From the IMG/VR virus record IMGVR_UViG_2541047125_000015: a stretch of 10,640 bases of DNA; one strand, 5' to 3'. Origin of the DNA: a virus (lineage: Duplodnaviria > Heunggongvirae > Uroviricota > Caudoviricetes). Shown in pieces: positions 1-10,640 of the stretch. Below the pieces are notes generated by a model. The model was not told the origin of the DNA and did no database searches. It saw only the letters and a program-made list of their open reading frames with translations. Each line of letters begins with the position of its first letter. Positions within the stretch are counted from its first letter, which is position 1. The translations under genes were made by a program, and so were the position numbers.

Positions 1-51
1 TAATTCCTGGCTAAACATCAAAAAGGCGACGTTGCCAGCGTATCCGGCACG

Positions 52-237
52 ATGCAGGTCAGCCAGTGGACCGGACAGAACGGGGAAACGCGGCAGGGTT
101 ATCAGGTTATTGCAGACAGCGTAATCAGTGCCCGTGCGGCACGTCCTGGTGGGAGCCGACGCAAGACCACAGGCACACAGGGTAATCAGCCACCAGCGGG
201 AGGCGATGACCCTTACGGTGATGATATTCCGTTCTGA
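52..237 (+). CDS. SSB-like C-terminal fragment (single-stranded DNA-binding protein tail); probably a truncated or disrupted ssb
   Basis: ORF ends ...PPAGGDDPYGDDIPF, the acidic DDIPF tip typical of bacterial and phage SSB. Upstream residues QWTGQNGETRQGYQVIADSV align by eye with the E. coli SSB segment KWTDQSGQDRYTTEVVVNV. An in-frame TAA sits at 1..3 and there is no Shine-Dalgarno before ATG52, so this is not a normal full-length ssb. Confidence 0.45.
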   Translation: MQVSQWTGQNGETRQGYQVIADSVISARAARPGGSRRKTTGTQGNQPPAGGDDPYGDDIPF

Positions 238-249
238 GGGGTGGGGACG

Positions 250-522
250 ATGGTACATGACCGCATAGCGGAAGAACTGGAGGCGAAAGGCTTTTACCGG
301 AGAGCGTCGGCGCGATGGGGTGAAGTCATGCAACTGGTGGAGACAGACAAGGAACGGCATCAGGTTACGATGCGACGGCTGGAATGTTCCAGGAAGGCAC
401 AGAGGCCACCGGAGCCGCCGGATAATTACGGAGACCTGAAAAAGGCGGTCGATCGCACTTATGCCGAAATGGGTATGGATGGTGCTGGTGATGAAATATG
501 GCGAAATTACCAGGACAGATAA
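250..522 (+). CDS. PerC-family transcriptional regulator-like small protein
   Basis: 91 aa from ATG250 (track start GTG241). MVHDRIAEELEAKGFYRRASARWGEVM...DKERHQVTMRRLEC fits the E..LE.KG.WRRAA.RW...D.ER.....RR..C pattern I recall for prophage PerC-like proteins. Recalled from memory, not searched. Start lies 13 nt after the SSB-like stop. Confidence 0.6.
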   Translation: MVHDRIAEELEAKGFYRRASARWGEVMQLVETDKERHQVTMRRLECSRKAQRPPEPPDNYGDLKKAVDRTYAEMGMDGAGDEIWRNYQDR

Positions 523-529
523 TCACACA

Positions 530-550
530 GCCGGAGCAATCCGGCTTTTT
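530..550 (+). terminator. Rho-independent terminator after the PerC-like gene
   Basis: GCCGGA-gcaa-TCCGGC hairpin followed directly by TTTTT, starting 8 nt after the TAA at 520..522. Confidence 0.55.
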
Positions 551-570
551 GTCATGTTTTGTAAATTATT

Positions 571-600
571 TGTTCGTGGTTGTTCCACGTTGTTCGCTGA
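571..600. repeat. Three helically phased TGTTC(G/C) direct repeats
   Basis: tgttcgtggt / tgttccacgt / tgttcgctga: TGTTC begins at 571, 581 and 591, exactly 10 bp apart. The same motif recurs at 8248 and 8258. Confidence 0.5.
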
Positions 601-672
601 CCGGATCGGCATATTTTACCCGAACTGAATCATGATTATTCTCGCCCGTGGTGCCAGGACGCTGGGGCCACT

Positions 673-719
673 TTCCCGCCTGTTAATGTGCTCGCCAATA
701 TTCATTACCAGGCGGGAAA
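673..719. promoter_or_regulatory. 16-bp imperfect inverted repeat upstream of the capsid gene
   Basis: ttcccgcctgttaatg (673..688) and cattaccaggcgggaa (704..719) are reverse complements with one mismatch, separated by 15 nt; no T-tract follows, so it is not a canonical terminator. Confidence 0.4.
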
Positions 720-809
720 ACGATCGGTGCGATTGCTGATTTCCTTATGAAAAACGGTTGAGTGTTTGCCGCGTCCTGGAGTTCCTTACTTAACTTCAGG
801 ACTTTTTTT

Positions 810-1967
810 ATGCCGAGAATAATCGAATTACGCCAGCAGAAAACCGCCATTAAAAATCAGATGCGCGACATGCTGGAGAACGCGGAAAAAGAAAACCGCA
901 GCCTTAACGATGCTGAGGGCGCAAAATTTGACGAATTACGCGCTAAAGCTGAATCCCTCGATAAAGACATCTCCCGCCTTGAGGCCGTTGCTGACGAAGA
1001 GCGCAGTAAACCAGGCAAAAACAGCCAGACCACTGACCCCGCCGAACTACGTCACTACATTCTGACAGGTGAAACCCGCGCATTGAGTACAGGCGTTCCC
1101 GCTGATGGTGGTTATACCGTTATCCCCGAACTGAACACCGAAATCATGCGAATGCTGACGGATGAATCCACCATGCGCCGCATCTGTACCGTGAAGAAAA
1201 TCAGCAGCAACGAGTTTAAGCAGCTTGTTTCCGCTGGCGGTGCGACCGTTAACCACGGTGAAGAGGGTAAGGCACGCGAACAGACCAGCACCCCGCAGAT
1301 TAACGAGGTGAGCATTAAGCTGTATCCGGTCTATGCGTACCCGCGCACCACGCAGGAAATCGTGGATTTTTCCGATGTGGACATCCTTTCATGGCTGACG
1401 GGCGAGATTGGCGACACCTTCACGGAAACCGAAGAAAGCGATCTGGTTGTGGGCGACGGTGACAAAAAAGCAAAAGGTTTTTTATCCGTACCCCGTGCAG
1501 AGAAGAACGACAAAGAGCGTGATTTTGGTACGTTGCAGGTAATTAAACCTTCCGAATCTCTGGCGTGGACATCTGCGGACCCGCTGATCGACCTGAAATT
1601 TGCATTACGTAAAAAATACCGCAAAAACGCGGTTTGGGTGGTTAACTCCACGACGGCGGCAAAACTCCAGAAGGTGAAGAACGCGAACGGTGATTACATC
1701 TGGCGCGACCGTTTACAGGCGGGTGATCCTGATACGTTGCTGGGCCTTCCGGTCGAATATCTGGAGTTTATGCCTGATAACGTTATTGCCCTGGGTGACT
1801 TCAAACGCGGTTACTACATTGTTGATCACGAAACAGGTGTTCGCACCAGACCGGACAACCTCACAGAGCCGGGCTTTATCAAAATTTTCACGCAGAAATA
1901 TTTAGGCGGTGGCGTGGTGGATTCGAACGCTATAAAGATTCTGGAACTGCCGCAGGACGACGATTAA
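810..1967 (+). CDS. Phage major capsid protein, HK97 family
   Basis: 385 aa from ATG810 (track ORF starts at GTG762; ATG810 has a better-placed SD-like cagga). N-terminal charged coiled-coil delta-like segment, then a large domain with motifs typical of HK97-fold capsids (ADGGYTVIPEL..., GDFKRGYYIVDH). Length and position next to the protease fit. Confidence 0.9.
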   Translation: MPRIIELRQQKTAIKNQMRDMLENAEKENRSLNDAEGAKFDELRAKAESLDKDISRLEAVADEERSKPGKNSQTTDPAELRHYILTGETRALSTGVPADGGYTVIPELNTEIMRMLTDESTMRRICTVKKISSNEFKQLVSAGGATVNHGEEGKAREQTSTPQINEVSIKLYPVYAYPRTTQEIVDFSDVDILSWLTGEIGDTFTETEESDLVVGDGDKKAKGFLSVPRAEKNDKERDFGTLQVIKPSESLAWTSADPLIDLKFALRKKYRKNAVWVVNSTTAAKLQKVKNANGDYIWRDRLQAGDPDTLLGLPVEYLEFMPDNVIALGDFKRGYYIVDHETGVRTRPDNLTEPGFIKIFTQKYLGGGVVDSNAIKILELPQDDD

Positions 1968-1976
1968 CAGCACACC

Positions 1977-2006
1977 GAAGGGGCTAAAAAGCCCCTTCTC
2001 TGTTTT
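1977..2006 (+). terminator. Rho-independent terminator after the capsid gene
   Basis: GAAGGGGC-taaaaa-GCCCCTTC (8-bp perfect stem) followed by tctgtttt, 10 nt after the capsid stop. Confidence 0.7.
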
Positions 2007-2021
2007 ACAGGTGAAAAAATT

Positions 2022-2579
2022 ATGATGAGTATGGAAATCCGGTCATCGGAAATCACCACCAGCGGCAGCAACACGCTTACGGGCTACGTTGTTCGCTGGG
2101 ATAACCTTTCAGAACTGCTATGGGGCGAATTTTACGAAAAATTCCAGCGGGGGGCGTTTACTGAATGGCTTGCGGTGGGTAATGACGTTCGCGGCCTGTA
2201 TGAGCATGACCACAGCATGTTACTGGGGCGCACCCGTTCCGGTACGCTGAGACTGGAAGAGGATGACACAGGGTTACGTTTTGAACTGATCCCACCGGAT
2301 ACCAGCACAGGGCGGGACGTTATCGAACTGGTTAAACGTGGTGACATCTCGGGCATGAGCTTTGGCTTTCGTTCCCGTAAGGATGTATGGGATACGACAG
2401 TCGATCCATGTGTGCGTACTGTACTGATAGCGGAACTGTACGAAATTACCGTGACATCCGTACCGGCTTACCCTGATTCCGGCGTGGAGCTGGCCCGCCG
2501 TTCCCTGTATGAGCAGCACCCTGAAAAAATGCCTCGTGCGGATAATCGCCGCTGGTGGGCGGATTTAGCGGGGGTGTGA
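2022..2579 (+). CDS. Prohead (maturation) protease, HK97 family
   Basis: 185 aa; GYVVRWDNLSE...RGLYEHDHSMLLGRTRSGTLRLEEDDTGLRFELIPPDTSTGRDVIELVKRGDISGMSFGF is the conserved core of HK97-type prohead proteases. SD-like aggtga 8 nt upstream. Confidence 0.9.
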   Translation: MMSMEIRSSEITTSGSNTLTGYVVRWDNLSELLWGEFYEKFQRGAFTEWLAVGNDVRGLYEHDHSMLLGRTRSGTLRLEEDDTGLRFELIPPDTSTGRDVIELVKRGDISGMSFGFRSRKDVWDTTVDPCVRTVLIAELYEITVTSVPAYPDSGVELARRSLYEQHPEKMPRADNRRWWADLAGV

Positions 2580-2580
2580 T

Positions 2581-3792
2581 ATGTGGCCTTTCAGAAGAAA
2601 AAAAGAGCAGCGCAGCATGACGCTTGATGAGTTTATGGCGCTGGCTGGCACATCGAACACGGGGGCGGGTGAGTACGTATCATCGGGGACAGCGGAATCA
2701 CTGCCCGCCGTCATGAACGCCGTCACGGTCATCTCTGAGGCGGTGGCTACCATGCCGTGTTACCTGTACCTGGTACGCAATGAGAAGGGGAAGGAGGCCC
2801 GAGAGTGGCTTGATTCTCATCCGGTCGATCACATCCTCAACGAGCGCCCGAACGCATGGCAAACCCCCTACCAGTTTAAGCGAATGATGATCCGCCACTG
2901 CCTGTTAAACGGTAATGCTTATGCGGTGATTCGGTGGGGGCGTGATGGTTTTCCGGTGGCTTTACATCCTTACCCGCCGCAGTCGGTGAACGTGGAGCAG
3001 ACAGGTGAGCATAACTGGCGCTACTGCATCACTGACGCCTACACCGGAAACACCCGCAACTATTTACCGTGGGAGGTTCTCCACCTTCGTTACTCCACGG
3101 ATGACGGTTTTATGGGGCGCTCACCTGTAACCATCTGCCGCGAATCGCTGGGGCTTGGGCTGGCCCAACAACGCCACGGCGCGAGCGTGATGCGTGATGG
3201 CATGATGGCGGCAGGGGTTATCACGTCAGGCGAGTGGCTGGACGGCGTGAAGGGTAAACAGGCATTAGCCGCACTGGAACGCTACAAAGGGGCCAGAAAC
3301 GCCGGAAAAACGCCCATCCTTGAAGGGGGTATGAGCTATCAGCAGCTGGGCATGAGTAATCAGGATGCTGAATGGCTGGCCTCCCGTCGCTTCACCATTG
3401 AAGACATCGCCCGAATGTTCAACGTCTCGCCGATTTTTTTGCAGGAATACAGCAACAGCACCTACAGCAATTTCAGCGAGGCAAGCCGCGCATTTCTCAC
3501 CATGACGATGCGCCCGTGGCTGGCGAACTTTGAGCAGCAGATAAAAAACGCCCTGCTGGTGGCCTCGCCTGTACCTGGTATCCGGTATCAGGTGGAGTTT
3601 GACAGCGCGGACCTGTTACGGGCCACACCTGGCGAACGCTTTGCCACCTATGAACGCGGCATCAAATCCGGCGTTATGTGCCCGAACGAAGCCCGCGAAC
3701 GTGAAGGGCTGTCCCCGCGTGATGGTGGTGATGAGTTCAGCCAGGCATGGAAACAGGAAGTAAAAATCAGCGAGGGAGAAAAACCGGAATGA
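2581..3792 (+). CDS. Phage portal protein, HK97 family
   Basis: 403 aa; portal-like blocks (LPAVMNAVTVISEAVATMP, NGNAYAVI, FTIEDIARMFNVSPIFLQEYSNSTYSNFSEASRAF). Start is 1 nt after the protease stop. Confidence 0.9.
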   Translation: MWPFRRKKEQRSMTLDEFMALAGTSNTGAGEYVSSGTAESLPAVMNAVTVISEAVATMPCYLYLVRNEKGKEAREWLDSHPVDHILNERPNAWQTPYQFKRMMIRHCLLNGNAYAVIRWGRDGFPVALHPYPPQSVNVEQTGEHNWRYCITDAYTGNTRNYLPWEVLHLRYSTDDGFMGRSPVTICRESLGLGLAQQRHGASVMRDGMMAAGVITSGEWLDGVKGKQALAALERYKGARNAGKTPILEGGMSYQQLGMSNQDAEWLASRRFTIEDIARMFNVSPIFLQEYSNSTYSNFSEASRAFLTMTMRPWLANFEQQIKNALLVASPVPGIRYQVEFDSADLLRATPGERFATYERGIKSGVMCPNEAREREGLSPRDGGDEFSQAWKQEVKISEGEKPE

Positions 3793-4127
3793 ACATAGGG
3801 CGACTGCGTGACAGGATAACGATTCAGACCCTGAAACAGACCAGGGATATAACCGGCGAAATACTCGAAACGTGGGTGGACGGTCACACACTCTGGGCAA
3901 GCGTGAACATGATCAGCAGCAAGGAGGCCATTTCATCGGGTGCAGAACTGGCGACTGGAACGGTAAGGATATGGATACGCTACAGGAAGGACATCAACGC
4001 CACCAGCCGGATAAAGGTCAATACGGGGCCGCTGGCGGGGCGTGTACTGAATATCATCGGGCAGCCGCTGCCGGATGCCGCCAGGACACGCCTTGAAATT
4101 CTTTGTCGTGAGGGCGCGGAAAAATGA
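3789..4127 (+). CDS. Head-tail adaptor / head closure protein (SPP1 gp16-like head-tail joining family)
   Basis: 113 aa from ATG3789, which overlaps the portal stop as ATGA (track ORF starts further upstream at 3747 inside the portal). RDRITIQTLKQTRDITGEILETWVDGHTLWASV...VRIWIRYRKDI...RLEILCRE matches the family pattern R.RI.I....TRD..G...E.W....WA.V ... IRYR.DI. Confidence 0.75.
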   Translation: MNIGRLRDRITIQTLKQTRDITGEILETWVDGHTLWASVNMISSKEAISSGAELATGTVRIWIRYRKDINATSRIKVNTGPLAGRVLNIIGQPLPDAARTRLEILCREGAEK

Positions 4128-4420
4128 CAGAAGAACTTATCACCCTGGAAGAAGTGAAACTCCATTGCCGCATCGATGGCGACGAGGAAGACCAGTTAAT
4201 CAGCGGATACATCGCCGCATCGCTTGAGGCGTGCCAGATACACATAGGCAGGCGCTTTGATGACGGGCTGGAGTTCACGCCAGCCATAAAGATTGGCTGC
4301 ATGATGTTTATCGCTCACCTGTATGAAAATCGCCAGATTGTCGCGGATAACGCAAAAACACGCGTACCCATGACGATTGGTGCACTCTGGACGGCTTACC
4401 GTGATGTGGGGGTGTACTGA
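4124..4420 (+). CDS. gp6-like head-tail connector protein
   Basis: 98 aa; LITLEEVKLHCRIDGDEEDQLISGYIAASLEA is the characteristic N-terminus of gp6-like connector proteins. Start overlaps the adaptor stop by 4 nt. Confidence 0.8.
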   Translation: MTEELITLEEVKLHCRIDGDEEDQLISGYIAASLEACQIHIGRRFDDGLEFTPAIKIGCMMFIAHLYENRQIVADNAKTRVPMTIGALWTAYRDVGVY

Positions 4421-4860
4421 TGCCGTGGCAACCATTAAGACGATGCACAGAACCAGGCTGTAACAGGCGCGTGAAGTCCGGCAAGTGTGAGGAGCACAGG
4501 CGGGCGGCATGGCGTGCAGAGGATGCCAGACGAGGACACCGCCGCGCGCGTGGGTACTCCAGACAGTGGGACAAATACCGCGCCATGTATCTGAGTAAAA
4601 ACCCGTTATGCGTGCGATGCCTTGAGAAGGGGATATATACGCCCGCCGTGGTGGTGGATCACATTATCCCGATTAATGGCGGTGATGATGTTCTCTTCTG
4701 GCCCGAATGGAACCATCAGCCATTGTGCCAGGCGTGCCATAACCAGAAAACGAAATGGCTTGATCCGGCAACAAAAAGCAAGCGTGCCGCAGGTGGATTT
4801 CGTGAAGAGGAAGAACGGGCCGCTAACCGCAATAACTGGATGTATGACGCTGATGAATGA
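4420..4860 (+). CDS. HNH endonuclease (phage packaging-associated)
   Basis: 146 aa; Cys-rich N-terminus (CTEPGC...GKCEEH), then VVDHIIPI...NHQPLCQACHNQKT, the HNH His/Asn and zinc-binding Cys/His pattern. Sits immediately upstream of terS as in HK97-like phages; start overlaps the connector stop by 1 nt. Confidence 0.85.
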   Translation: MPWQPLRRCTEPGCNRRVKSGKCEEHRRAAWRAEDARRGHRRARGYSRQWDKYRAMYLSKNPLCVRCLEKGIYTPAVVVDHIIPINGGDDVLFWPEWNHQPLCQACHNQKTKWLDPATKSKRAAGGFREEEERAANRNNWMYDADE

Positions 4861-5026
4861 GCGGGAACAAAACCGCCTTATCCGTGGACTTATAAGGCAG
4901 CGTGACGCATGGAAGACACAGGAAACAGGGCATAAAGATAAAGCGTCAGGACGCGCAGAACGCATCACAGCGAAGCGATTAACCGACCGTGACTGCGAGG
5001 TTATGGAATGTTTCCGCAATCGCTGA
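4844..5026 (+). CDS. Possible small basic ORF between HNH and terS (uncertain)
   Basis: Only the distal 60 codons of track ORF 4622..5026 lie outside the HNH gene. ATG4844 or ATG4853 would give about 58-61 aa (MNEREQNRLIRGLIRQRDAWK...). No convincing SD; may be non-coding cos-flanking DNA. Confidence 0.2.
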   Translation: MTLMNEREQNRLIRGLIRQRDAWKTQETGHKDKASGRAERITAKRLTDRDCEVMECFRNR

Positions 5027-5037
5027 TGAGGCTGTAT

Positions 5038-5082
5038 GACGGGGTGGGGGGCGTTTTCAGGACAAACCCGCCCCCGCCGGGC
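5038..5082. promoter_or_regulatory. Candidate cos / terminase recognition region (G-run and C-run dyad)
   Basis: gacggggtggggggcg ... cccgcccccgccgggc; gggggcg (5047..5053) is complementary to cgccccc (5069..5075). It lies in the 288-bp gap between HNH and terS, where HK97-like phages place cos. An AT-rich stretch follows. Confidence 0.3.
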
Positions 5083-5148
5083 ACCGAACGCCTCCTCAAA
5101 TTTTTATGCACGGGAATTTTTTGAAAAATAATCTGACGAAAAATAAAC

Positions 5149-5505
5149 ATGGCAAGACCACCGAAAGCCCCCGCCTACCTTGATGACATCGCCGTAAAGC
5201 AGTGGCGGGAAAAATCGCGCCAGCTTGCGGAACGGGGAGACCTCACCCCCGCCGACTGGAGTAATCTCGAACTGTATTGCGTCAACTACTCGATATACAG
5301 GAAAGCCGTCGCAGACCTTGCGGCACGCGGGTTCAGCATTGTTAACAGTCAGGGCGGAGAGAGCAGAAACCCCGCATTAAGCGCGAAATCCGACGCTGAA
5401 AGAGTGATGATAAAAATGGCCTCCTTGCTTGGTTTTGACCCGATAAGCCGCCGTAAAAATCCACCGGAAACAGAAGAAGAGGACGAGCTTGACCACCTGG
5501 AATAA
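5149..5505 (+). CDS. terS: Terminase small subunit, P27 family
   Basis: 118 aa; LTPADWSNLELYCVNYSIYRKAVADLAARGF...NPALSAKSDAERVMIKMASLLGF fits the P27-type small terminase pattern, and it sits directly upstream of terL. Confidence 0.85.
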   Translation: MARPPKAPAYLDDIAVKQWREKSRQLAERGDLTPADWSNLELYCVNYSIYRKAVADLAARGFSIVNSQGGESRNPALSAKSDAERVMIKMASLLGFDPISRRKNPPETEEEDELDHLE

Positions 5506-7150
5506 GTACGCAGAAGACGTAAAAACGGGCAAAATTCCGGCCTGTAAACGGTTAAAACAGGCCGTTAAACGGTACTTTTCGGACCTTAAAAGTCCCCTTT
5601 ACACGTTCGATAGTGAGGTTGTGGAGCGGTTTATTGCCTTTTCAAGGGTGTGCCCGCACGTAAAAGGGCCGTTGCGTGGCAGACCCATTGAGCTGGAGCC
5701 GTGGCAGCAGTTCGCCTTTGCGTGCATCCTGGGTTTTAAGGTTAAGGCCACCGGACGGCGCAAATACTCGAGCGCTTTTATCGAAGTACCGCGAAAAAAT
5801 GCGAAATCCACGACCGCCGCGATTCTGGCTGACTGGTTTCTGATTATGGAGAACGGGCAGCAGGATATTTACACCGCAGCGGTGAGCCGTGACCAGGCAC
5901 GGATCGTGTTTGATGATGCGCGTCAGATGTGCCTTTTATCCCGACCGTTACGCAGGCGGGTGAATATTCAGGCCCACAAGGTGATACACCCGAAAACCAA
6001 CAGCCTGTTAAAGCCGCTGGCAGCAAAAGCGGCAACCATCGAGGGGACAAACCCGAGTCTTGCCATTGTGGACGAATATCACCTGCACCCCGATAACGGC
6101 GTTTATTCCGCGCTTGAGCTGGGGATGGGTGCACGTCCCGAAGGGCTGTTATTTGCCATTACCACATCGGGAAGTAACGTCGTTTCAGCCTGTAAGCAGC
6201 ACTATGATTATTGCTGCCAGATCCTGGACGGCGAAGAGGTCAACGAATCGCTTTTTGTGCTGATTTACGAGCTGGACGATGAAAACGAGGTTGACGATCC
6301 GGCGATGTGGATAAAGGCGAATCCCAATATCGATGTTTCCGTTGATCGTGAAAAACTGGCCTCAACCATCCAGAAAGCGCGGGGTATTCCGTCGCAGTGG
6401 GTGGAGATGATGACAAAGCGGTTTAACATCTGGTGCCAGGGGGCCACCCCGTGGATGGGTAACGGGGCGTGGGCTGAGTGTGCCGGAACGTTCACGGAGG
6501 AGGATTTACACGGCCAGGAATGTTACGCGGGGCTTGATTTGTCATCCACAAGCGACATTTCCAGCGTGTGCTATGCCTTTCCGGTCGGCAAAAAAATTAT
6601 GCTGCTTTCCCGTCACTATCTGCCGGAATTTCAGCTACAGAACCCCGCCAACAAGAACCGGGCCATTTATCGCCAGTGGGCTAAATCGGGCTGGTTGCGG
6701 ATAACGCCGGGCGACTGCATTGATTACGACCGGATCCGCGATGACATCATGGAGGACGCGGAAAAATTTGATATCAGGCTGGTGGGCTTTGATACGTGGA
6801 ACGCCACGCATCTCAGGACGCAATTACAGGGGGCAGGGTTTGAGGTTGAGCCGTTCCCGCAAACCTATCTGAGATTCAGTCCGGCGGCGAAATCGTTCGA
6901 AGTTTTTGTTAACCGCAGGGTGATAGTCCATCGTGATGATCCGGTGTTGTCGTGGTCGATGAGTAACGTCGTGATGCAGAGTGACGCGAACGCCAATATC
7001 AAGCCAAACAAGAAAAAATCACCGAACAAGATAGACCCGAGCGTGGCGGCACTGATGGCGTTTGGCACATTCCAGGCAGAGCATGAAGATTTTGCTTTTG
7101 ATATAAGCGACAGCCACCGCGAAAAACTGGAAGAATTTAACGGGGTGTGA
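5489..7150 (+). CDS. terL: Terminase large subunit
   Basis: 553 aa; an ATPase-like N-terminal region (PRKNAKSTTAA) and a nuclease-like C-terminal region. Starts at TTG5489, the only start codon after the in-frame stop at 5444..5446, with SD gagga 5 nt upstream. Overlaps terS by 17 nt. Confidence 0.9.
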   Translation: MTTWNKYAEDVKTGKIPACKRLKQAVKRYFSDLKSPLYTFDSEVVERFIAFSRVCPHVKGPLRGRPIELEPWQQFAFACILGFKVKATGRRKYSSAFIEVPRKNAKSTTAAILADWFLIMENGQQDIYTAAVSRDQARIVFDDARQMCLLSRPLRRRVNIQAHKVIHPKTNSLLKPLAAKAATIEGTNPSLAIVDEYHLHPDNGVYSALELGMGARPEGLLFAITTSGSNVVSACKQHYDYCCQILDGEEVNESLFVLIYELDDENEVDDPAMWIKANPNIDVSVDREKLASTIQKARGIPSQWVEMMTKRFNIWCQGATPWMGNGAWAECAGTFTEEDLHGQECYAGLDLSSTSDISSVCYAFPVGKKIMLLSRHYLPEFQLQNPANKNRAIYRQWAKSGWLRITPGDCIDYDRIRDDIMEDAEKFDIRLVGFDTWNATHLRTQLQGAGFEVEPFPQTYLRFSPAAKSFEVFVNRRVIVHRDDPVLSWSMSNVVMQSDANANIKPNKKKSPNKIDPSVAALMAFGTFQAEHEDFAFDISDSHREKLEEFNGV

Positions 7151-7164
7151 ATGAGGTTCCAGGC

Positions 7165-7446
7165 ATGACAGAGGCCGAAATACTGGGATTAATCCGCCGC
7201 GTTGCCGGAATCAGCCAGCAGGCTGACGAACAGGCCGCGCAGCCGGACAGCGTGACCGCCGAAAATTATGCGCGTGTGGTTGCTGAGGTGATGCGCCGTG
7301 ATGGTATCCAGCTTAACGATGTAGATATGCGCAACATACGGATCCGCGTTCTTGAAATGCTGGCCTACCGTCGCCGCGTTGAGATGTATCGGGAGAAAGA
7401 GAAAATTACTTACCACTGGAAGAAGCCGGAACGATTGCGGCGGTAA
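7165..7446 (+). CDS. Small hypothetical protein downstream of terL
   Basis: 93 aa from ATG7165 (SD gagg 8 nt upstream; track start GTG7147 overlaps the terL stop). Protein-like composition (MTEAEILGLIRRVAGISQQADEQ...RRRVEMYREKEK); no family recognised. Confidence 0.5.
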   Translation: MTEAEILGLIRRVAGISQQADEQAAQPDSVTAENYARVVAEVMRRDGIQLNDVDMRNIRIRVLEMLAYRRRVEMYREKEKITYHWKKPERLRR

Positions 7447-7461
7447 CTTGCTGATATTCCC

Positions 7462-7505
7462 GATAACGCAAAATTGCGCTGGCTGACTTGTTGCATTGCA
7501 AAAAG
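7462..7505. repeat. Direct repeat A, copy 1 (about 43 bp)
   Basis: gataacgcaaaattgcgctggctgacttgttgcattgcaaaaag. Shares GATAACGC..ATTGCGCTGGCTG...TGCA with copy 2 and contains the palindrome ttgcaTtgcaa. Confidence 0.55.
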
Positions 7506-7600
7506 TTAAGCAGGAAGGCACGGCCTGTAAGATGGGATGCAGTAAGTAGTTCAAGGCTACCTTGTGCTGGCACGCACAGTTAAGCCGTCGGTGCTGGATA

Positions 7601-7615
7601 TCCCCCACTGGGGGA
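7601..7615. promoter_or_regulatory. Perfect 15-bp palindrome TCCCCCA-c-TGGGGGA
   Basis: Read directly from the sequence; lies between the two A repeats. Confidence 0.5.
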
Positions 7616-7647
7616 AAAGCTGGCTACATCCCTCACATCTGAGGACT

Positions 7648-7690
7648 GATAACGCGACATTGCGCTGGCTGGCAAAGTGCAAAATTGCAC
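7648..7690. repeat. Direct repeat A, copy 2 (about 43 bp)
   Basis: gataacgcgacattgcgctggctggcaaagtgcaaaattgcac; roughly 70% identical to copy 1 by eye; ends in the palindrome gtgcaAAATtgcac. Confidence 0.55.
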
Positions 7691-7697
7691 GATGGCC

Positions 7698-7858
7698 TAA
7701 CCCATTGATTATTTCGAAAACCTGCAATGCAGGAAATCGGGGAAGTAAGCCTAAGCTATTGATTGTTTCGAAAACCCTCATTGGGGGATGTCGGGAAAGT
7801 AAGACTAACCCATTGATTCTTCCACAATCCTCAATTTGAGGAGGCAGGGAACATCCCC
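7698..7858. repeat. Tandem array of three ~53-55-bp direct repeat units (B1-B3), each with a TTTCGAAA-type palindrome and a short hairpin
   Basis: Units at 7698..7750, 7751..7805 and 7806..7858 share TAAcCcATTGATT - TTTCGAAAACC - 13-nt hairpin - G-rich tail. Hairpins: cctgcAATgcagg, ccctcATTggggg, cctcaATTtgagg. Confidence 0.65.
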
Positions 7859-7894
7859 TAAATCCGGTGATGTATTCGGCCCCTTTAACGGGTA

Positions 7895-7930
7895 TTGCGA
7901 TTTTCGCAACCCCCTACGAAATTTTCGTAG
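7895..7930. promoter_or_regulatory. Two adjacent dyads built on CGAAA/TTTCG half-sites
   Basis: ttgcg-atttt-cgcaa (7895..7909) and the perfect inverted repeat CTACGAAA-t-TTTCGTAG (7914..7930); same half-site as the TTTCGAAA cores of the B units. Confidence 0.45.
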
Positions 7931-7955
7931 TTTAATTACTCGTCAGATTAATCGC

Positions 7956-8007
7956 TAACCCACTGATATTTTCGGAAACCTCAATTTGAGGAGGCCGGAA
8001 CGTCTAC
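7956..8007. repeat. Fourth B-type repeat unit (B4), about 100 bp downstream of the tandem array
   Basis: taacccactgatattttcggaaacctcaatttgaggaggccggaacgtctac; same architecture, and its hairpin cctcaATTtgagg is identical to that of B3. Confidence 0.6.
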
Positions 8008-8240
8008 ATAGCTGCATCGCCGTAATGATGATTCAGCCCACCAGCCAAATCAGCACAGCAACGACAGAATAGCCCGACACAGAAAAACCACGAATATGGG
8101 GTTTTTGTTATGGCATGGTCATGATGACCGCCCCTGCTCTGAATGGTGGAAATCACCACGCAGATCATCAACCAGCTTCATGACGGATAGCCGGAAAATG
8201 ATAACGGTTAAGCAAAACCATCAGCAAATTTCCCTTTTGT

Positions 8241-8304
8241 TTGTTATTGTTCGTCGTTGTTCGTAGAGCTTCAACGAAATGTGTGGTCAGTTGTGTGGTC
8301 AGTT
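8241..8304. promoter_or_regulatory. Phased TGTTCGT repeats plus a perfect 12-bp tandem duplication just upstream of int
   Basis: TGTTCGT at 8248 and 8258 (10-bp phasing, preceded by ttgtttgttat); gtgtggtcagtt repeated exactly twice at 8281..8292 and 8293..8304, 36 bp before the int start. Confidence 0.5.
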
Positions 8305-8339
8305 TTTTGGGGCTGGAGGACTGAAAAGAGGATCTGATA

Positions 8340-9560
8340 GTGGGAAAAGCACTAAACAAACTGAGCGATTCGACATTAAAAAAATTGGCGGCTGTCCAGG
8401 CAGAAAAAGAGCGTTTTTACTCCGACGGGGGCGGGCTGGAGATTAAACACTCAAAAGGCGGAAAATTAACCTGGTATTTCCGGTACCGAACGGGAGGCCG
8501 TGAGGTTGCCGCAGAGCGGTTAAAGCTGGGGGCTTACCCTGAATTGTCGCTGAAAGCTGCAAGGGAAAAACGCGCACAGTGCCGGGCATGGCTGGCTGAG
8601 GGTAAAAACCCCCGTTATGAGTTGTGCGCCACAGTACAGGAAGCGCTAAAACCCGTTACGGTGAAGGAGGCGATTAACTACTGGCTGGAGGAATATGCGA
8701 AGGATAACCGCAAAGACTACATAAAGCTGGTGCAACGTATGGATAAGCACATCATTTGCCATATAGGGGCAATTCCTCTTGATAAATGCGACACAAGGCA
8801 GTGGATCGCATGTTTTGACCGTGTACGAAAAAAAGCACCAGTAGCAGCGGGGCACGTCATGCAAACCTGCAAACAGGCGCTAAAGTTCTGCCGCAGGAGA
8901 CGCTACGCGTTCAGTAATGCCCTGGACGATTTGATCGTCAGCGATGTGGGTAAGAGAGCAGAAATTCGCGAGAGGGTGCACAGTAACAGCGAATTAAAGG
9001 AAATTTTACGCGCTATTGATGGTGATGTGTTCGCGCCTTACTACAGCGCGTTAATGCGCTTGCTGATTGTGTTCGGGTGCAGAACTGCAGAGGTCAGACT
9101 TTCAGAGATCAAAGAATGGGATCTGAAAGAAATGTTGTGGACAGTGCCAAAAGAGCACAGCAAAACGAAGGTAACGATATTCAGGCCAATCCCCGATGGC
9201 ATTTTGCCGTTCATTCAGAAGCTGGTGGATCAGAACCGGCATACAGGGTTATTGCTCGGAGAACTGAAAAAAGATACCACGGTAGCGCAATATGGGCGAA
9301 ATGCGCATAAGCGGCTTAACCAGGAACATTGGTCACTGCATGACTTTCGCCACACGTTTACAACGATGCTGAACGATTTAGGTGTCGATCCGCATATCGT
9401 GGAGCACATCACAGCGCATCAGATGCCCGGTCAGCAAAAAACCTATAACCATTCACGCTATTTACAGGCGAAGCGGGACGCTCTGAATCTGTGGGTTGAG
9501 CGCCTCGATGTGCTGGCTGGAAATCATGAAAATATTGTTATGCTGAAGGTGGCCAAATGA
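8340..9560 (+). CDS. int: Tyrosine site-specific integrase, P4 type
   Basis: 406 aa from GTG8340 with SD aagagga upstream. N-terminal arm-binding-type region (LEIKHSKGGKLTWYFRYRTGGREV...LGAYPELSLKAAREKR) and C-terminal catalytic region with LHDFRHTF (H-x-x-R) and a downstream Tyr (KTYNHSRYL). Confidence 0.9.
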   Translation: MGKALNKLSDSTLKKLAAVQAEKERFYSDGGGLEIKHSKGGKLTWYFRYRTGGREVAAERLKLGAYPELSLKAAREKRAQCRAWLAEGKNPRYELCATVQEALKPVTVKEAINYWLEEYAKDNRKDYIKLVQRMDKHIICHIGAIPLDKCDTRQWIACFDRVRKKAPVAAGHVMQTCKQALKFCRRRRYAFSNALDDLIVSDVGKRAEIRERVHSNSELKEILRAIDGDVFAPYYSALMRLLIVFGCRTAEVRLSEIKEWDLKEMLWTVPKEHSKTKVTIFRPIPDGILPFIQKLVDQNRHTGLLLGELKKDTTVAQYGRNAHKRLNQEHWSLHDFRHTFTTMLNDLGVDPHIVEHITAHQMPGQQKTYNHSRYLQAKRDALNLWVERLDVLAGNHENIVMLKVAK

Positions 9561-10330
9561 AATTACCTAAAAGACTCTATTATCCGTTACCTGAAGCGGC
9601 AGAAAAGTTAGGCTGTGCAATAAAAGATCTTTATCATTACGCATATATAGGTGCTCTTAATATTTCTGTATATATACCAAAAATTGATGCTAAAAAATTC
9701 AATTTTTCATTATGTCATTTTATCAATGGTTGTAATGAGGAAGAATTAATAAAATATCCTTTCAATGATGAATCTGCTGTTTTTGGAAGTAATTTTACAG
9801 TTGGTTTAACTGGTGACACTGAATTTTTAGATAGTGCCATTATTGGTCCTGTAGGGAATTCTATCAAATGTTATTATGTTAGCAGCTTATCAGGGTTTTA
9901 TTATACTCCGGCATATGTTTTTGCTGATGTCGAATTTAGCATGAGACAATATATAAAATGTTCTCATCTTACGAATAAGTATGGTGATGATAATCTCATG
10001 TATGTTTTTTGTAAGGGTGGTTATGAATTTGATGTTAACTATTTGTGTGTGATGGCTAGTGATTTAGATAATATAAAAAATACGGGAGACTTCCCGAAGA
10101 TAACAGAAGATAGCCCAAAAGCATCGTCAAAAAGGAATGAGGTTATTTACTCTTTAATTAAACTTATTCCAGAAATGGGTGATGTAGACCTGGACACGGA
10201 ATCATTACCTAAAATAGCAGATTTAATTGATTCTATAGCTGCATCCAGAGGGATAGAATTTCCAAAAACACATTGGCAGACATGGCAAAAGTATTTGGGG
10301 CGTGAATCTCAACAAAAACGTAAAAAGTGA
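9557..10330 (+). CDS. AT-rich hypothetical protein (orphan cargo gene), translationally coupled to int
   Basis: 257 aa; ATG9557 overlaps the int stop as ATGA, with SD-like aaggtgg upstream. The DNA is visibly AT-rich (about one-third G+C by eye, versus about half in int) with AAA/ATT/TTT-rich codons. N-terminal RLYYPLPEAAEKLGCAIKDLYHYAYIG loosely resembles an AlpA/excisionase-type HTH; the rest matches nothing I recognise. Confidence 0.7.
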   Translation: MKLPKRLYYPLPEAAEKLGCAIKDLYHYAYIGALNISVYIPKIDAKKFNFSLCHFINGCNEEELIKYPFNDESAVFGSNFTVGLTGDTEFLDSAIIGPVGNSIKCYYVSSLSGFYYTPAYVFADVEFSMRQYIKCSHLTNKYGDDNLMYVFCKGGYEFDVNYLCVMASDLDNIKNTGDFPKITEDSPKASSKRNEVIYSLIKLIPEMGDVDLDTESLPKIADLIDSIAASRGIEFPKTHWQTWQKYLGRESQQKRKK

Positions 10331-10359
10331 TATCACGTGCTGGTAGTGTGATATCACAC
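10327..10359. promoter_or_regulatory. Two copies of the palindrome GTGATATCAC, 21 bp centre to centre (candidate operator)
   Basis: gtgatatcac at 10327..10336 (overlapping the orphan stop) and at 10348..10357, the latter within the 14-bp palindrome gtgtgatatcacac (10346..10359). Spacing is two helical turns. Confidence 0.5.
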
Positions 10360-10386
10360 AAACGGCGTTTTACTACCGCCTAGAAT

Positions 10387-10421
10387 CGTCCTCGTTCGGC
10401 AACGTTCGAGGACGTTTTTTT
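10387..10421 (+). terminator. Hairpin plus T7 tract abutting the alpA start codon (terminator or 5'-UTR structure)
   Basis: CGTCCTCG - 12-nt loop - CGAGGACG followed by ttttttt and then ATG10422. The 3' arm contains the only SD-like sequence (gagga) for alpA. Confidence 0.5.
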
Positions 10422-10640
10422 ATGAATCAAAATACACAATTTCAATCACTATCAGATCGCGTAATCCGTGAGGATGAATGCCGTAAGTTAACAGGAGTGT
10501 GCCGCACTACACGCTACGAACTGGAGAAAAAAGGGAATTTCCCGTCACGCCGTAATCTGGGTGGTCGTTCAGTAGGTTGGCTGCTTTCCGAGGTTATGGA
10601 ATGGGTTAAAAGCCGGGATCGTATTAATTCAGGCAAGGCA
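10422..10640 (+). CDS. alpA: AlpA-family phage regulatory protein (HTH), 3' end cut by the window
   Basis: MNQNTQFQSLSDRVIREDECRKLTGVCRTTRYELEKKGNFPSRRNLGGRSVGWLLSEVMEWV matches the AlpA/excisionase-like pattern (hydrophobic-R-x-x-E-x-x-x-x-TG-x-x-R-x-T-x-Y-x-x-x-x-x-G-x-FP...GGR.V.W...EV..W). The ORF runs to the last base of the window. Confidence 0.8.
   Translation, partial: MNQNTQFQSLSDRVIREDECRKLTGVCRTTRYELEKKGNFPSRRNLGGRSVGWLLSEVMEWVKSRDRINSGKA

What the first reader, a model, noticed from the sequence alone, without database searches (positions are those of the whole stretch)
7447..8339. 0.9-kb gene-free, dyad-dense region between terL-side genes and int: likely island junction or att region
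A complete head and packaging module ends at 7446 and an integrase begins at 8340, so the element boundary or attachment site is expected in between. The region holds perfect palindromes (TCCCCCA-c-TGGGGGA at 7601..7615; CTACGAAA-t-TTTCGTAG at 7914..7930; ttgcg-atttt-cgcaa at 7895..7909), a cctca-catc-tgagg hairpin at 7631..7644 echoing the B-unit hairpins, and recurring CGAAA/TTTCG half-sites. Two readings are possible: tandem islands sharing one att site (the satellite ends here and a second int-led island begins), or one element with an internal int. I found no tRNA-like T-arm or CCA end here, so the att core, if present, is not an obvious tRNA 3' end.
Basis: partly seen in the sequence, partly recalled or inferred. 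Interest (0 to 1): 0.55.

Follow-up and report, generated by a model that had tools for sequence, protein, structure and literature searches.

The report
Satellite tail joined to its integrase
The gap is not a border between two islands: it is the non-coding tail of one capsid-forming phage satellite (cf-PICI) joined to that satellite's own integrase end, and the tail holds four copies of a short IHF-site-plus-palindrome module copied from the roi genes of helper-type lambdoid phages.

Summary
The interval 7447-8339 has no credible gene and is strongly enriched in dyads (25 versus 6.8±3.1 in shuffles).

Window 4-8306 is 100% identical to the right end of a cf-PICI in E. coli O157:H7 MB41-1. 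Window 8237-10640 is 100% identical to the left (int) end of the same element. The two matches overlap in an exact 70-bp repeat (8237-8306).

So the window is a permuted copy of one roughly 16-kb satellite. That 70-bp repeat is not the crossover core. Integrated copies are bounded by a 14-bp duplication (AGAAATACCCGTAT) inside the thiM TPP riboswitch. The 70-bp repeats lie inside that duplication and look like arm cassettes (TTGTTYG x3, TGTGTGGTCAGT x2). The window lacks the core and 159 bp of a canonical attP.

The dyads belong to a modular tail (7447-8211) shared by E. coli PICIs that use different att sites. Its centre is four 54-nt units, each a (near-)perfect IHF consensus plus a covarying 13-nt palindrome. 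Each unit type matches the same short stretch inside a different roi allele of lambdoid/Stx phages.

My best reading is that these are DNA sites that recruit IHF and helper Roi protein. That function is inferred, not shown.

The parts
7165..7446 (+). Last gene of the satellite (93 aa, phrog_1561, function unknown). The non-coding tail always follows this gene.
   Evidence: the last PICI gene at four different att sites. (phrog_1561, E 1e-56). No Pfam hit.
7447..7485 (+). Tail module A, nearly universal directly after the stop codon. It contains copy 1 of the 24-nt repeat GATAACGCAAAATTGCGCTGGCTG (7462-7485), with the dyad CGCAAAATTGCG.
7483..7672 (+). Tail module B, variably present. It includes the dyads 7601-7615 and 7631-7644 and copy 2 of the 24-nt repeat (7648-7671). 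Recombination between the two 24-nt copies gives the short tails seen in other PICIs.
   Evidence: RNA fold z = -2.45 for 7440-7700.
7677..7690 (.). Perfect dyad GTGCAAAATTGCAC, immediately before unit 1.
7695..7748 (-). Unit 1: IHF consensus AATCAATGGGTTA (7698-7710, minus strand) plus the dyad CCTGCAaTGCAGG (7721-7733). It matches the homologous stretch of the roi alleles of CP-1639 and Stx2a_WGPS6.
7749..7802 (-). Unit 2: IHF consensus AATCAATAGCTTA (7752-7764, minus strand) plus the dyad CCCTCAtTGGGGG, which is CCCCCATTGGGGG in other PICIs. It matches the roi allele of HK629 and VT2-Sakai (88.7% over 53 nt).
7803..7856 (-). Unit 3: IHF consensus AATCAATGGGTTA (7806-7818, minus strand) plus the dyad CCTCAAtTTGAGG (7829-7841). 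It is 97.7% identical over 43 nt to a stretch inside roi of JLK-2012 and Lahn2 (95.3% to Stx1a phages).
7895..7930 (.). Module D dyads TTGCGattttCGCAA (7895-7909) and CTACGAAAtTTTCGTAG (7914-7930). They travel together with unit 4 in other PICIs.
   Evidence: A marginal 24-nt exact match lies in a KilAC antirepressor gene of Hafnia phage Pocitis76 (E 0.07).
7953..8006 (-). Unit 4: an IHF-like site with one mismatch (TATCAGTGGGTTA) plus the dyad CCTCAAtTTGAGG (7979-7991). This is the most widespread unit and the only one in many PICIs.
8051..8211 (.). Tail module E, non-coding and shared by PICIs integrated at thiM and at clpS. It contains a hairpin flanked by A and T runs (8083-8106) and the dyad GGTCATGATGACC (8117-8129). 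Function unknown.
8237..8306 (+). The 70-bp repeat present at both ends of the integrated element, read here as an att arm cassette. It holds three 10-bp-phased TTGTTYG repeats (8237-8266) and a tandem TGTGTGGTCAGT x2 (8280-8303, candidate arm-type Int sites). In the window it is the point where the right end joins the left end.
8307..8339 (+). Left-end-specific leader of int, including a GGAGG Shine-Dalgarno-like motif.
8340..9560 (+). Tyrosine integrase of the same cf-PICI (Arm-DNA-bind_3 plus Phage_integrase domains).

Best explanation
Shown:
- The interval is the non-coding right-hand tail of one capsid-forming PICI of E. coli. It is fused through a 70-bp direct repeat (8237-8306) to the left, integrase end of the same element. 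The window is therefore a circular permutation of a single roughly 16-kb satellite, not a boundary between two islands.
- In chromosomes this element sits inside the thiM TPP riboswitch and is bounded by a 14-bp duplication, AGAAATACCCGTAT.

Inferred:
- The 70-bp repeats lie 63 and 82 bp inside that duplication and act as arm cassettes. The TGTGTGGTCAGT x2 would bind the arm-binding domain of Int. The phased TTGTTYG x3 would bind a factor common to PICIs, most plausibly the AlpA/Vis-like protein.
- A canonical attP would then read 70-63-14-82-70 bp. The window lacks the central 159 bp. Its joint therefore arose by recombination between the two 70-bp repeats (an unequal-crossover tandem copy or a RecA-made circle), or by an assembler walking through the repeat.
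- The dyads belong to a modular tail (7447-8211) common to E. coli PICIs whatever their integrase. Its core is four 54-nt units, each an IHF consensus next to a 13-nt palindrome whose two arms covary. They are copied from the intragenic site of three allelic classes of lambdoid roi genes.
- These units most likely work as double-stranded DNA sites. On a replicating satellite they would recruit host IHF and the helper phage's Roi protein (Rha-type N-terminal DNA-binding domain plus KilAC domain). That would either titrate Roi or couple the satellite to the helper's early gene expression.
For: Permutation:
- Window 4-8306 equals MB41-1 cf-PICI right end, and window 8237-10640 equals its left end. 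Both are 100% identical and overlap by exactly 70 bp.

Target site:
- Empty sites in K-12, O157 and thousands of other genomes join the two riboswitch halves directly. RefSeq annotates 'riboswitch' there.
- Three independent PICIs at thiM show the same nested layout.
- Split sub-threshold TPP hits lie on both flanks.
- All 76 genomes carrying the 70-bp repeat have at least two copies, and none has a relic alone.

Arm reading:
- A clpS-site PICI with a 67%-identical Int has the same design. It has an 18-bp target duplication, with TTGTTCG phased repeats and a different tandem 12-mer (GGTGTAGTTAAT x2) in both arms.
- The Int carries an arm-binding domain.
- Phased TTGTTYG pairs occur 4 times against 0.42 expected.

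Tail:
- It is shared in mosaic form by 1338 of 5426 E. coli genomes, downstream of the same last gene, at the thiM, clpS, phoQ and prophage-portal sites.

Units:
- The only three perfect IHF consensus matches in the 10.6-kb window are in units 1-3 (0 of 200 shuffles reach 3).
- Each unit type matches a different roi allele at codons ~41-58.
- HK022 roi, the allele whose Roi/IHF site was studied experimentally, has its only IHF consensus plus a dyad at the same position.
- Across 22 distinct units the dyad arms are 95.5% complementary, with 3 of 6 pairs changed on both sides (0 of 500 shuffles).
- Variation concentrates in the free NNNN positions of the IHF consensus. That fits protein binding rather than base pairing.
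- No other part of roi and no Roi-like protein is present in the PICIs examined.
- In IMG/VR PICI loci the units number 0-3 per tail and are always in the same orientation.
Against: - The window's exact joint was not found in 5426 complete E. coli genomes, in plasmids, or in IMG/VR or JGI contigs. The predicted canonical attP joint was not found either. How the joint arose is therefore unresolved.
- Binding of IHF, Roi, Int or AlpA to any of these sequences has not been tested. The statement that HK022 Roi binds within its own gene beside an IHF site comes from my memory of the abstract of Clerget & Boccard 1996. The paper is cited in PMC3430580 and PMC4587872 but its text is not held.
- Lambda, which has no roi as far as I recall, is a helper for EcCICFT073. 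Some PICI tails have no unit. Roi cannot therefore be essential to the PICI life cycle.
- The constant orientation and the high identity among tails could reflect common descent rather than selection.
Confidence: 0.6

Rival explanations
1. Two distinct islands lie in tandem and share one att site. The head-module satellite ends here and a second, unrelated int-led island begins.
For: The gene order alone (packaging module, then a gap, then int) fits this. Positions 1 and 3 of the window differ from MB41-1, so the source is not that genome.
Against: Int, the 257-aa ORF and alpA downstream are 100% identical to the left end of the very element whose right end lies upstream. A tandem pair made by Int would carry the 14-bp core plus 63+82 bp between the copies, and that is absent. 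All 76 genomes carrying the 70-bp repeat hold it only as separate places (median 2, up to 4), and none has the predicted 70-63-14-82-70 joint of an Int-made tandem pair contiguous.
Confidence: 0.08
2. The joint is a genuine attP. Int recombines within the 70-bp identity, and the riboswitch-flanked 215 bp is an older relic that serves as the landing pad.
For: A 70-bp exact identity between attL and attR is the classic signature used to call att sites. The window shows exactly the product expected.
Against: No genome has the relic alone, although it would be the required attB, while thousands have the intact riboswitch. The 14-bp duplication of riboswitch sequence at the outer ends shows integration there. 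The clpS-type relative has only partial arm repeats but a clear 18-bp outer duplication.
Confidence: 0.1
3. The units act as RNA. Read-through transcripts of the satellite's late operon carry segments antisense to helper roi mRNA and silence Roi.
For: All units lie antisense to roi relative to the PICI operon. Unit 3 is complementary to 42 of 43 nt of one roi allele. The region folds somewhat better than shuffles (z -2.45).
Against: Conservation follows the IHF consensus and the dyad, not the cognate roi sequence. For example, unit 1 has CCC where its cognate roi has GTT, and the spacer lengths differ. Identities of 88% with indels are poor for antisense pairing. No promoter or terminator signal defines an RNA.
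Confidence: 0.1
4. The units are functionless scars: fragments of roi picked up by recombination with lambdoid phages and then duplicated.
For: They are in-frame 18-codon pieces of roi. Copy number varies from 0 to 4, and some PICIs lack them.
Against: Three different alleles contribute the same ~50-nt window, trimmed to the IHF site plus dyad and arranged head to tail at a 54-nt period. In non-coding DNA the IHF consensus stays perfect in three of four units of this window, with single mismatches in some units of other PICIs, and the dyads keep complementarity through compensatory change, including a fourth type, CAGCC/GGCTG.
Confidence: 0.14
5. The dyads are transcript-level punctuation: terminators, insulators or 3'-end stabilising hairpins. 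They would protect late-operon mRNA and stop read-through into int or the host thiM, as REP/BIME elements do.
For: The hairpins are dense just after the last gene of a long operon. The IHF-site-plus-palindrome arrangement recalls RIP/BIME-1 elements (from my own knowledge).
Against: Only two weak terminator-like sites were found, no more than in shuffles. The stems are short (5-7 bp) and mostly lack T-runs. This reading does not explain the allele-by-allele homology to roi.
Confidence: 0.08

Closest known systems
Capsid-forming PICIs (EcCIEDL933 family; Alqurainy et al., bioRxiv 10.1101/2022.09.08.507074)
   Same: The gene content matches: int, alpA, a primase-type replication gene, then major capsid, protease, portal, head closure and connector proteins, HNH, a P27-type TerS and TerL. 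There are no tail or lysis genes. The size is ~16 kb, and the element sits at a fixed E. coli att site.
   Different: In my term searches of that paper I found no description of the non-coding tail or its roi-derived units, and no named attB sites. The copy in the window is permuted and lacks the att core.
Lambda-type attP (core flanked by arm-type Int sites, IHF sites and Xis sites)
   Same: The Int has an arm-binding domain. Tandem 12-mers sit in both arms at about 70-130 bp from the inferred core. Phased short repeats are suited to an Xis/Vis/AlpA-like factor.
   Different: The two arms carry an identical 70-bp cassette. The core is a piece of a riboswitch, not a tRNA 3' end. The core is missing from the window.
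Intragenic Roi/IHF site of phage HK022 roi (Clerget & Boccard 1996, J Bacteriol 178:4077; details from memory of the abstract)
   Same: The same sequence module sits at the same place in roi: an IHF consensus at nt 153 with a dyad 9-14 nt upstream. It is homologous to the PICI units.
   Different: In PICIs the module is non-coding, present in up to four copies and drawn from several alleles. It is not linked to any roi gene.
BstA/aba self-immunity (Owen et al. 2021, PMC8585504)
   Same: This is a precedent for a short DNA element overlapping the gene of a phage DNA-binding protein. The element acts as DNA, needs copy number, and is specific to its own allele.
   Different: BstA has a KilA-N-like domain, not Rha plus KilAC. 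The aba sequence is unrelated to the units. The one BTP1 match was a chance hit (E=7). No abortive-infection role is known for Roi.
RIP/BIME-1 repetitive elements of E. coli (IHF site flanked by palindromic units; from my own knowledge)
   Same: Non-coding repeats that combine an IHF site with short palindromes.
   Different: There is no sequence relation. The PICI units are confined to satellite tails and roi genes and are not dispersed through the chromosome.

Membership tests
cf-PICI (capsid-forming phage-inducible chromosomal island) | int and alpA at the left end, with a primase/replication module | tested here: met
   Int has Pfam integrase domains. Phage_AlpA and a DUF927 primase are present in the identical element.
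cf-PICI (capsid-forming phage-inducible chromosomal island) | Own capsid, portal, protease, HNH, TerS and TerL genes, no tail or lysis genes, size ~15 kb | tested here: met
   RefSeq annotation of the identical element. Terminase_4 and HNH domains. 16,079 bp between the core copies.
cf-PICI (capsid-forming phage-inducible chromosomal island) | Helper-dependent induction and packaging into PICI-made small capsids | not testable with these tools
   Needs induction and transfer experiments.
Functional attP of a tyrosine integrase | A core sequence identical to the chromosomal attB | tested here: not met
   The attB core AGAAATACCCGTAT has no match in the window with fewer than 3 mismatches.
Functional attP of a tyrosine integrase | Repeated arm-type sites next to int, and an Int with an arm-binding domain | tested here: met
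   TGTGTGGTCAGT x2 at 8280-8303, inside a cassette found on both arms. Arm-DNA-bind_3 domain. A parallel arrangement exists in the clpS-type PICI. Binding itself was not tested.
tRNA-gene-targeting island | A tRNA or tmRNA 3' end at the junction | tested here: not met
   ARAGORN finds none. The target is the thiM TPP riboswitch.
Roi/IHF binding module of lambdoid roi genes | Sequence homology to roi codons ~41-58, with an IHF consensus and an adjacent dyad | tested here: met
Roi/IHF binding module of lambdoid roi genes | Actual binding of Roi and IHF | not testable with these tools
   Needs EMSA, footprinting or ChIP. The literature basis is recalled from memory, not read.
cos packaging site | A cosQ/cosN-type site just upstream of the terS or rpp gene | not tested
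   Set aside on location and conservation only; no cos motif search of the interval was run. Published PICI cos sites lie just upstream of rpp. The tail is shared by elements with unrelated terminases, lambda-type Rpp versus P27-type TerS/TerL.

The most novel reading that the evidence does not exclude
E. coli phage satellites carry in their non-coding tail a multi-allelic array of helper-phage Roi operator/IHF modules. This would be a DNA-based decoy or sensor, functionally like the aba element of BstA. On the amplified satellite it would sequester or read out the Roi (Rha-KilAC) proteins of several classes of lambdoid and Stx helper phages. It would also recast the intragenic Roi site of roi as a cognate self-control element.
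Probability: 0.3. Interest if true: 0.75.

Novelty: new variant of a known kind. Interest (0 to 1): 0.55.

Why it matters
Three consequences follow.

1. Annotation. A long direct repeat at both ends of an island is not necessarily its att core. Here the longest repeat (70 bp) is an arm cassette and the real target is a 14-bp piece of the thiM TPP riboswitch. Repeat-bounded "circular" satellite sequences can therefore lack a functional attP. Integration also splits a riboswitch that controls thiamine salvage genes.

2. Biology. About a quarter of complete E. coli genomes (1338 of 5426) carry sequence matching this tail, mostly only parts of it, and I found no paper describing it. Its core is an array of protein-binding-type modules taken from three alleles of a poorly understood lambdoid early gene (roi) that is common in Shiga-toxin phages.

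3. Testability. If the array binds Roi and IHF, it would be a new way for satellites to sense or disarm helpers. It would also give a handle on what Roi does, using simple gel-shift and deletion experiments.

Tried and rejected
- tRNA/tmRNA scan: nothing found.
- Rfam on the window: only a spurious snoRNA hit, outside the interval.
- Short ORFs in the gap: no family hits and no conserved frame in module E.
- cos site: set aside, because published PICI cos sites lie upstream of rpp/terS and the tail is shared by elements with unrelated terminases.
- A relic-only attB (82+70+63 bp inside the riboswitch): sought and found in none of 5426 genomes.
- The window's joint: not found in complete E. coli genomes, IMG/VR, JGI metagenomes or plasmids.
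- The predicted canonical attP joint: not found in IMG/VR or JGI metagenomes, nor contiguous in complete E. coli genomes; the IMG/VR scan for the 63-bp right flank also found nothing.
- Exact-protein look-ups of the 93-aa protein and of Int: only integrated copies among the longest contigs. The 99-aa GTG-start version is not on record.
- The single genome-contig scan with the 99-aa form of the last gene (window 7147-7443): one locus only.
- A degenerate unit pattern in IMG/VR: mostly chance hits, so I filtered them with an nhmmer profile.
- A weak match of unit 1 to bstA of phage BTP1: a chance hit (E=7), at the wrong end of the gene.
- The rest of the tail with the units masked: no phage homology apart from one marginal 24-nt hit.
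- A Roi-like protein encoded by the PICIs: none found.
- GTTCG pair upstream of alpA (10384-10398): I first took it for a further phased site, but it is better read as the stem of a terminator-like hairpin followed by a T-run.
- The Clerget & Boccard paper could not be read.
Full report
OBSERVATION.
The interval 7447-8339 lies between the stop codon of a 93/99-aa ORF that follows terL and the GTG start of a tyrosine integrase. The interval holds 25 perfect inverted repeats (stem >=5, loop <=6). Dinucleotide shuffles give 6.8 +/- 3.1 (0 of 300 reach 25), and equal-length coding windows of the same sequence give 1-8.

There is no tRNA and no Rfam match at E<=1 in the interval. The short ORFs have no family hits, and RefSeq annotates nothing there in identical genomes.

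- a 54-nt unit in four copies, three in tandem at 7695, 7749 and 7803 and one at 7953;
- a 24-nt repeat at 7462 and 7648;
- a perfect 12-nt tandem, TGTGTGGTCAGT x2, at 8280-8303.

WHAT THE TWO SIDES ARE.
Window 7447-8306 is 100% identical to the sequence after the last gene of a capsid-forming PICI in four E. coli O157 genomes. In those genomes thiM follows 159 bp later. Window 8250-10640 (int, a 257-aa ORF, alpA) is 100% identical to the left end of that same element in the same genomes.

A base-by-base comparison shows:
- window 4-8306 equals the right part of the element;
- window 8237-10640 equals the left part;
- the two overlap in an exact 70-bp direct repeat at 8237-8306.

The window is therefore a permutation of one satellite, with its right end joined to its own left end. 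It is not a junction between two different islands. Two of the first three bases differ from MB41-1, so the source is a related copy and not that genome.

WHERE THE REAL ATT CORE IS.
I built the attB that the 70-bp repeat would imply. No genome among 5426 has it. Empty sites instead join a sequence about 82 bp left of the left repeat directly to a sequence about 63 bp right of the right repeat, and RefSeq annotates that spot as the thiM riboswitch.

Three independent thiM-site PICIs (one cf-PICI and two classical) share this layout:
- riboswitch 5' half, ending ...CTGAGAAATACCCGTAT;
- 82 bp;
- 70-bp repeat;
- int ... tail;
- 70-bp repeat;
- 63 bp, ending ...AGTAAGAAATACCCGTAT;
- riboswitch 3' half, then thiM.

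Rfam gives split, sub-threshold TPP hits on both flanks, 20 and 36.9 bits against a gathering score of 54.3. All 76 genomes that carry the 70-bp repeat have at least two copies of it, never one alone.

A clpS-site PICI whose Int is 67% identical has the same design. It has an 18-bp outer target duplication. Inside that, both arms carry 10-bp-phased TTGTTCG repeats and a tandem 12-mer, here GGTGTAGTTAAT x2, one copy lying just upstream of int.

I conclude the following by inference from comparative anatomy:
- The crossover core is the 14-bp riboswitch piece.
- The 70-bp repeats are arm cassettes.
- The integrase-specific 12-mers are candidate arm-type Int sites, since the Int has an Arm-DNA-bind_3 domain.
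- The TTGTTYG triplets are sites for a factor common to PICIs, for which the AlpA/Vis-like protein is the obvious candidate.

A canonical attP would read 70-63-14-82-70 bp. The window lacks the central 159 bp, and the core has no match in it.

Its joint therefore reflects one of three things: recombination between the two 70-bp repeats giving an unequal-crossover tandem copy, the same recombination giving a RecA-made circle, or an assembler path through a repeat longer than its k-mer. I could not decide among these. Neither this joint nor the predicted canonical joint turned up in the collections I searched. I scanned complete E. coli genomes, IMG/VR and JGI metagenomes for both joints, and plasmids only for the window's own joint. 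The longest contigs carrying the exact Int or the exact 93-aa protein are all integrated copies.

THE TAIL IS A SHARED, MODULAR PICI FEATURE.
The same ~93-aa gene (phrog_1561) ends both cf-PICIs and classical Rpp-type PICIs at thiM, clpS, phoQ and inside a lambdoid prophage portal gene. The last case is a helper-embedded PICI as described in PMC10111431. In every case 600-1370 bp of non-coding DNA follows. Parts of the window's tail occur in 1338 of 5426 complete E. coli genomes.

Local alignments resolve these modules:
- A, 7447-7485;
- B, 7483-7672;
- the unit array, 7690-7856;
- D, 7914-8004;
- E, 8051-8211.

Module E is also present in clpS-site elements, so only 8212-8339 is specific to the thiM integrase. 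Recombination between the 24-nt repeats, or between units 3 and 4, explains the shorter tails. The latter is the common 150-bp deletion. Module E has no conserved reading frame.

Published PICI cos sites lie upstream of rpp, and the tail is shared by elements with unrelated terminases. I therefore did not pursue a cos role.

THE 54-NT UNITS.
On the minus strand each unit carries the IHF consensus WATCAANNNNTTR. It is perfect in units 1-3, and these are the only three perfect matches in the whole window (0.47 expected, 0 of 200 shuffles reach 3). Nine to fourteen bases away lies a 13-nt palindrome: CCTGCAaTGCAGG, CCCYCAtTGGGGG or CCTCAAtTTGAGG.

Each unit type matches a different allele of the lambdoid gene roi, on its coding strand (minus strand of the window), at the same place (codons ~41-58):
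- Unit 3 is 97.7% identical over 43 nt to a stretch inside roi of JLK-2012 and Lahn2, and 95.3% to Stx1a phages.
- Unit 2 matches roi of VT2-Sakai and HK629, 88.7% over 53 nt.
- Unit 1 matches roi of CP-1639 and Stx2a_WGPS6, with an identical dyad.

Roi is a Phage_pRha plus ANT/KilAC protein. Its N-terminal ~65 residues differ between alleles, and the rest is nearly invariant. HK022 roi has its only IHF consensus at nt 153 and a CCTGCATTGCAG dyad just upstream, at the homologous position.

From my memory of the abstract of Clerget & Boccard (1996):
- HK022 Roi binds a site inside its own gene beside an IHF site.
- IHF stabilises that binding.
- Roi blocks lytic growth in IHF mutants.

The paper is cited in PMC3430580 and PMC4587872, but I could not read it.

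Evidence on selection and distribution:
- Across 22 distinct units from PICIs and roi alleles, the dyad arms are 95.5% complementary. Three of six pairs show changes on both sides (18 cells), and 0 of 500 shuffles reach this.
- A further dyad type, CAGCC/GGCTG, appears in IMG/VR PICIs.
- In those PICIs the units number 0-3 per tail, always in the same orientation, 50-600 nt after the last gene.
- No other part of roi, and no Roi-like protein, is encoded by the PICIs examined.

MECHANISM.
Variation among units and roi alleles falls in the free NNNN positions of the IHF consensus and in both dyad arms together. The IHF core and the dyad symmetry stay fixed. That pattern is what protein-DNA recognition predicts. 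It is not what antisense pairing with a particular roi mRNA predicts: unit 1 differs from its cognate roi exactly in the IHF N positions and in spacer length.

I therefore favour this reading: the array is double-stranded DNA that recruits host IHF and, in trans, the Roi protein of a resident or infecting lambdoid phage. Three specificity classes are represented, and two of the three were found in Stx phages of O157:H7 hosts (VT2-Sakai for unit 2 and Stx2a_WGPS6 for unit 1). The unit-3 allele occurs in Stx1a-converting phages whose hosts are not given in the records, and in phages of other EHEC serotypes (O55:H7, O84:H-).

On an amplified satellite such an array could titrate Roi, or it could time a satellite function to the helper's delayed-early expression. 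The BstA/aba system is a documented precedent for an allele-specific, DNA-based element that overlaps the gene of a phage DNA-binding protein and works by copy number. It is an analogy only. The sequences are unrelated, and the single BTP1 match was chance.

Roi cannot be essential. Lambda is a helper for EcCICFT073, and the phage factor that switches on alpA is unknown. Some tails have no unit.

The rival readings (antisense RNA, inert gene scraps, transcript punctuation) are listed with their tests. I could not assign a function to modules A, B and E or to the 24-nt repeats.

VERDICT.
The att-region reading is partly supported. The island's ends do meet here, but they belong to one element. 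The joint runs through an arm repeat rather than the core, and the palindromes are not att features.

The cf-PICI and its integrase system are of a known kind. The nested arm-cassette layout, the riboswitch target, and above all the roi-derived IHF/dyad array in PICI tails were not described in any paper I could find.

Confidence is high for the structural conclusions and moderate to low for the proposed function.

Noticed in passing
L003 5776-5789 and L001 12924-12937 (outside the window): Integration splits the thiM TPP riboswitch. The 5' half stays at attL. At attR only a 36.9-bit partial TPP hit remains (gathering score 54.3), with satellite DNA replacing the 5' half. Thiamine control of thiMD may be altered in the 76 carrier genomes.
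   Followed up: partly
window 568-600: Three 10-bp-phased TTGTTCS repeats (TTGTTCG, TTGTTCC, TTGTTCG) lie between a PerC-family activator gene (241-522) and the capsid operon. The same TTGTTYG motif and phasing occur in the att arm cassette (8237-8266) and in the clpS-type PICI arms. One PICI factor may act at both the late promoter and the att arms.
   Followed up: partly
window 9557-10330: A 257-aa ORF between int and alpA has very low G+C (29-37% against ~52% elsewhere). It has no Pfam or PHROG hit and overlaps the int stop codon. It may be an acquired accessory or defence gene.
   Followed up: partly
window 10327-10357 and 10380-10420: Two copies of the perfect palindrome GTGATATCAC lie 11 nt apart just upstream of alpA and look like operators. 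A hairpin plus T-run follows and looks like the terminator of the 257-aa ORF.
   Followed up: no
L004, L023, L026, L028 (roi genes of JLK-2012, HK629, WGPS6, HK022): All four roi alleles keep ATC-AAT-nnn-TTA at codons 51-54, including the rare Leu codon TTA. They also keep a dyad at codons ~44-47, even though those amino acids differ (PQIE, PPMV, PALQ). This points to a DNA-level constraint inside roi. The allele-specific N-terminal domain and its own putative site lie in the same stretch.
   Followed up: partly
L002 (E. coli EC93) 10001-10807: A classical PICI with the same tail ends next to a truncated lambdoid portal gene. This is a helper-embedded PICI as described in PMC10111431. Its Int is only 40% identical to the window's.
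   Followed up: partly
window 7914-7937: The 24 nt CTACGAAATTTTCGTAGTTTAATT match exactly inside a KilAC antirepressor gene of Hafnia phage Pocitis76 (E 0.07). Unit 4's minus-strand translation continues to resemble Roi past the unit (ISGLAINLTSN versus INGLGLNQSF). Module D may be a longer fragment of another roi-like allele.
   Followed up: partly
window 7462-7485, 7648-7671, 7677-7690: The 24-nt repeat GATAACGCrAmATTGCGCTGGCTG and the nearby GTGCAAAATTGCAC share a GCAAAATTGC-type dyad. The first copy is the most conserved piece of all PICI tails. No homologue was found in phages and no function can be assigned.
   Followed up: partly
L013 (Logan SRR27905077) 3283-4600: The same cf-PICI packaging module and 93-aa gene sit next to small multidrug-resistance-family genes instead of thiM. 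The module therefore travels with other integrases and att sites.
   Followed up: no
window 10146-10243: A sub-threshold Rfam hit to the eukaryotic snoRNA SNORA5 (24.8 bits, E 0.086) lies in the low-GC ORF. It is almost certainly spurious.
   Followed up: no
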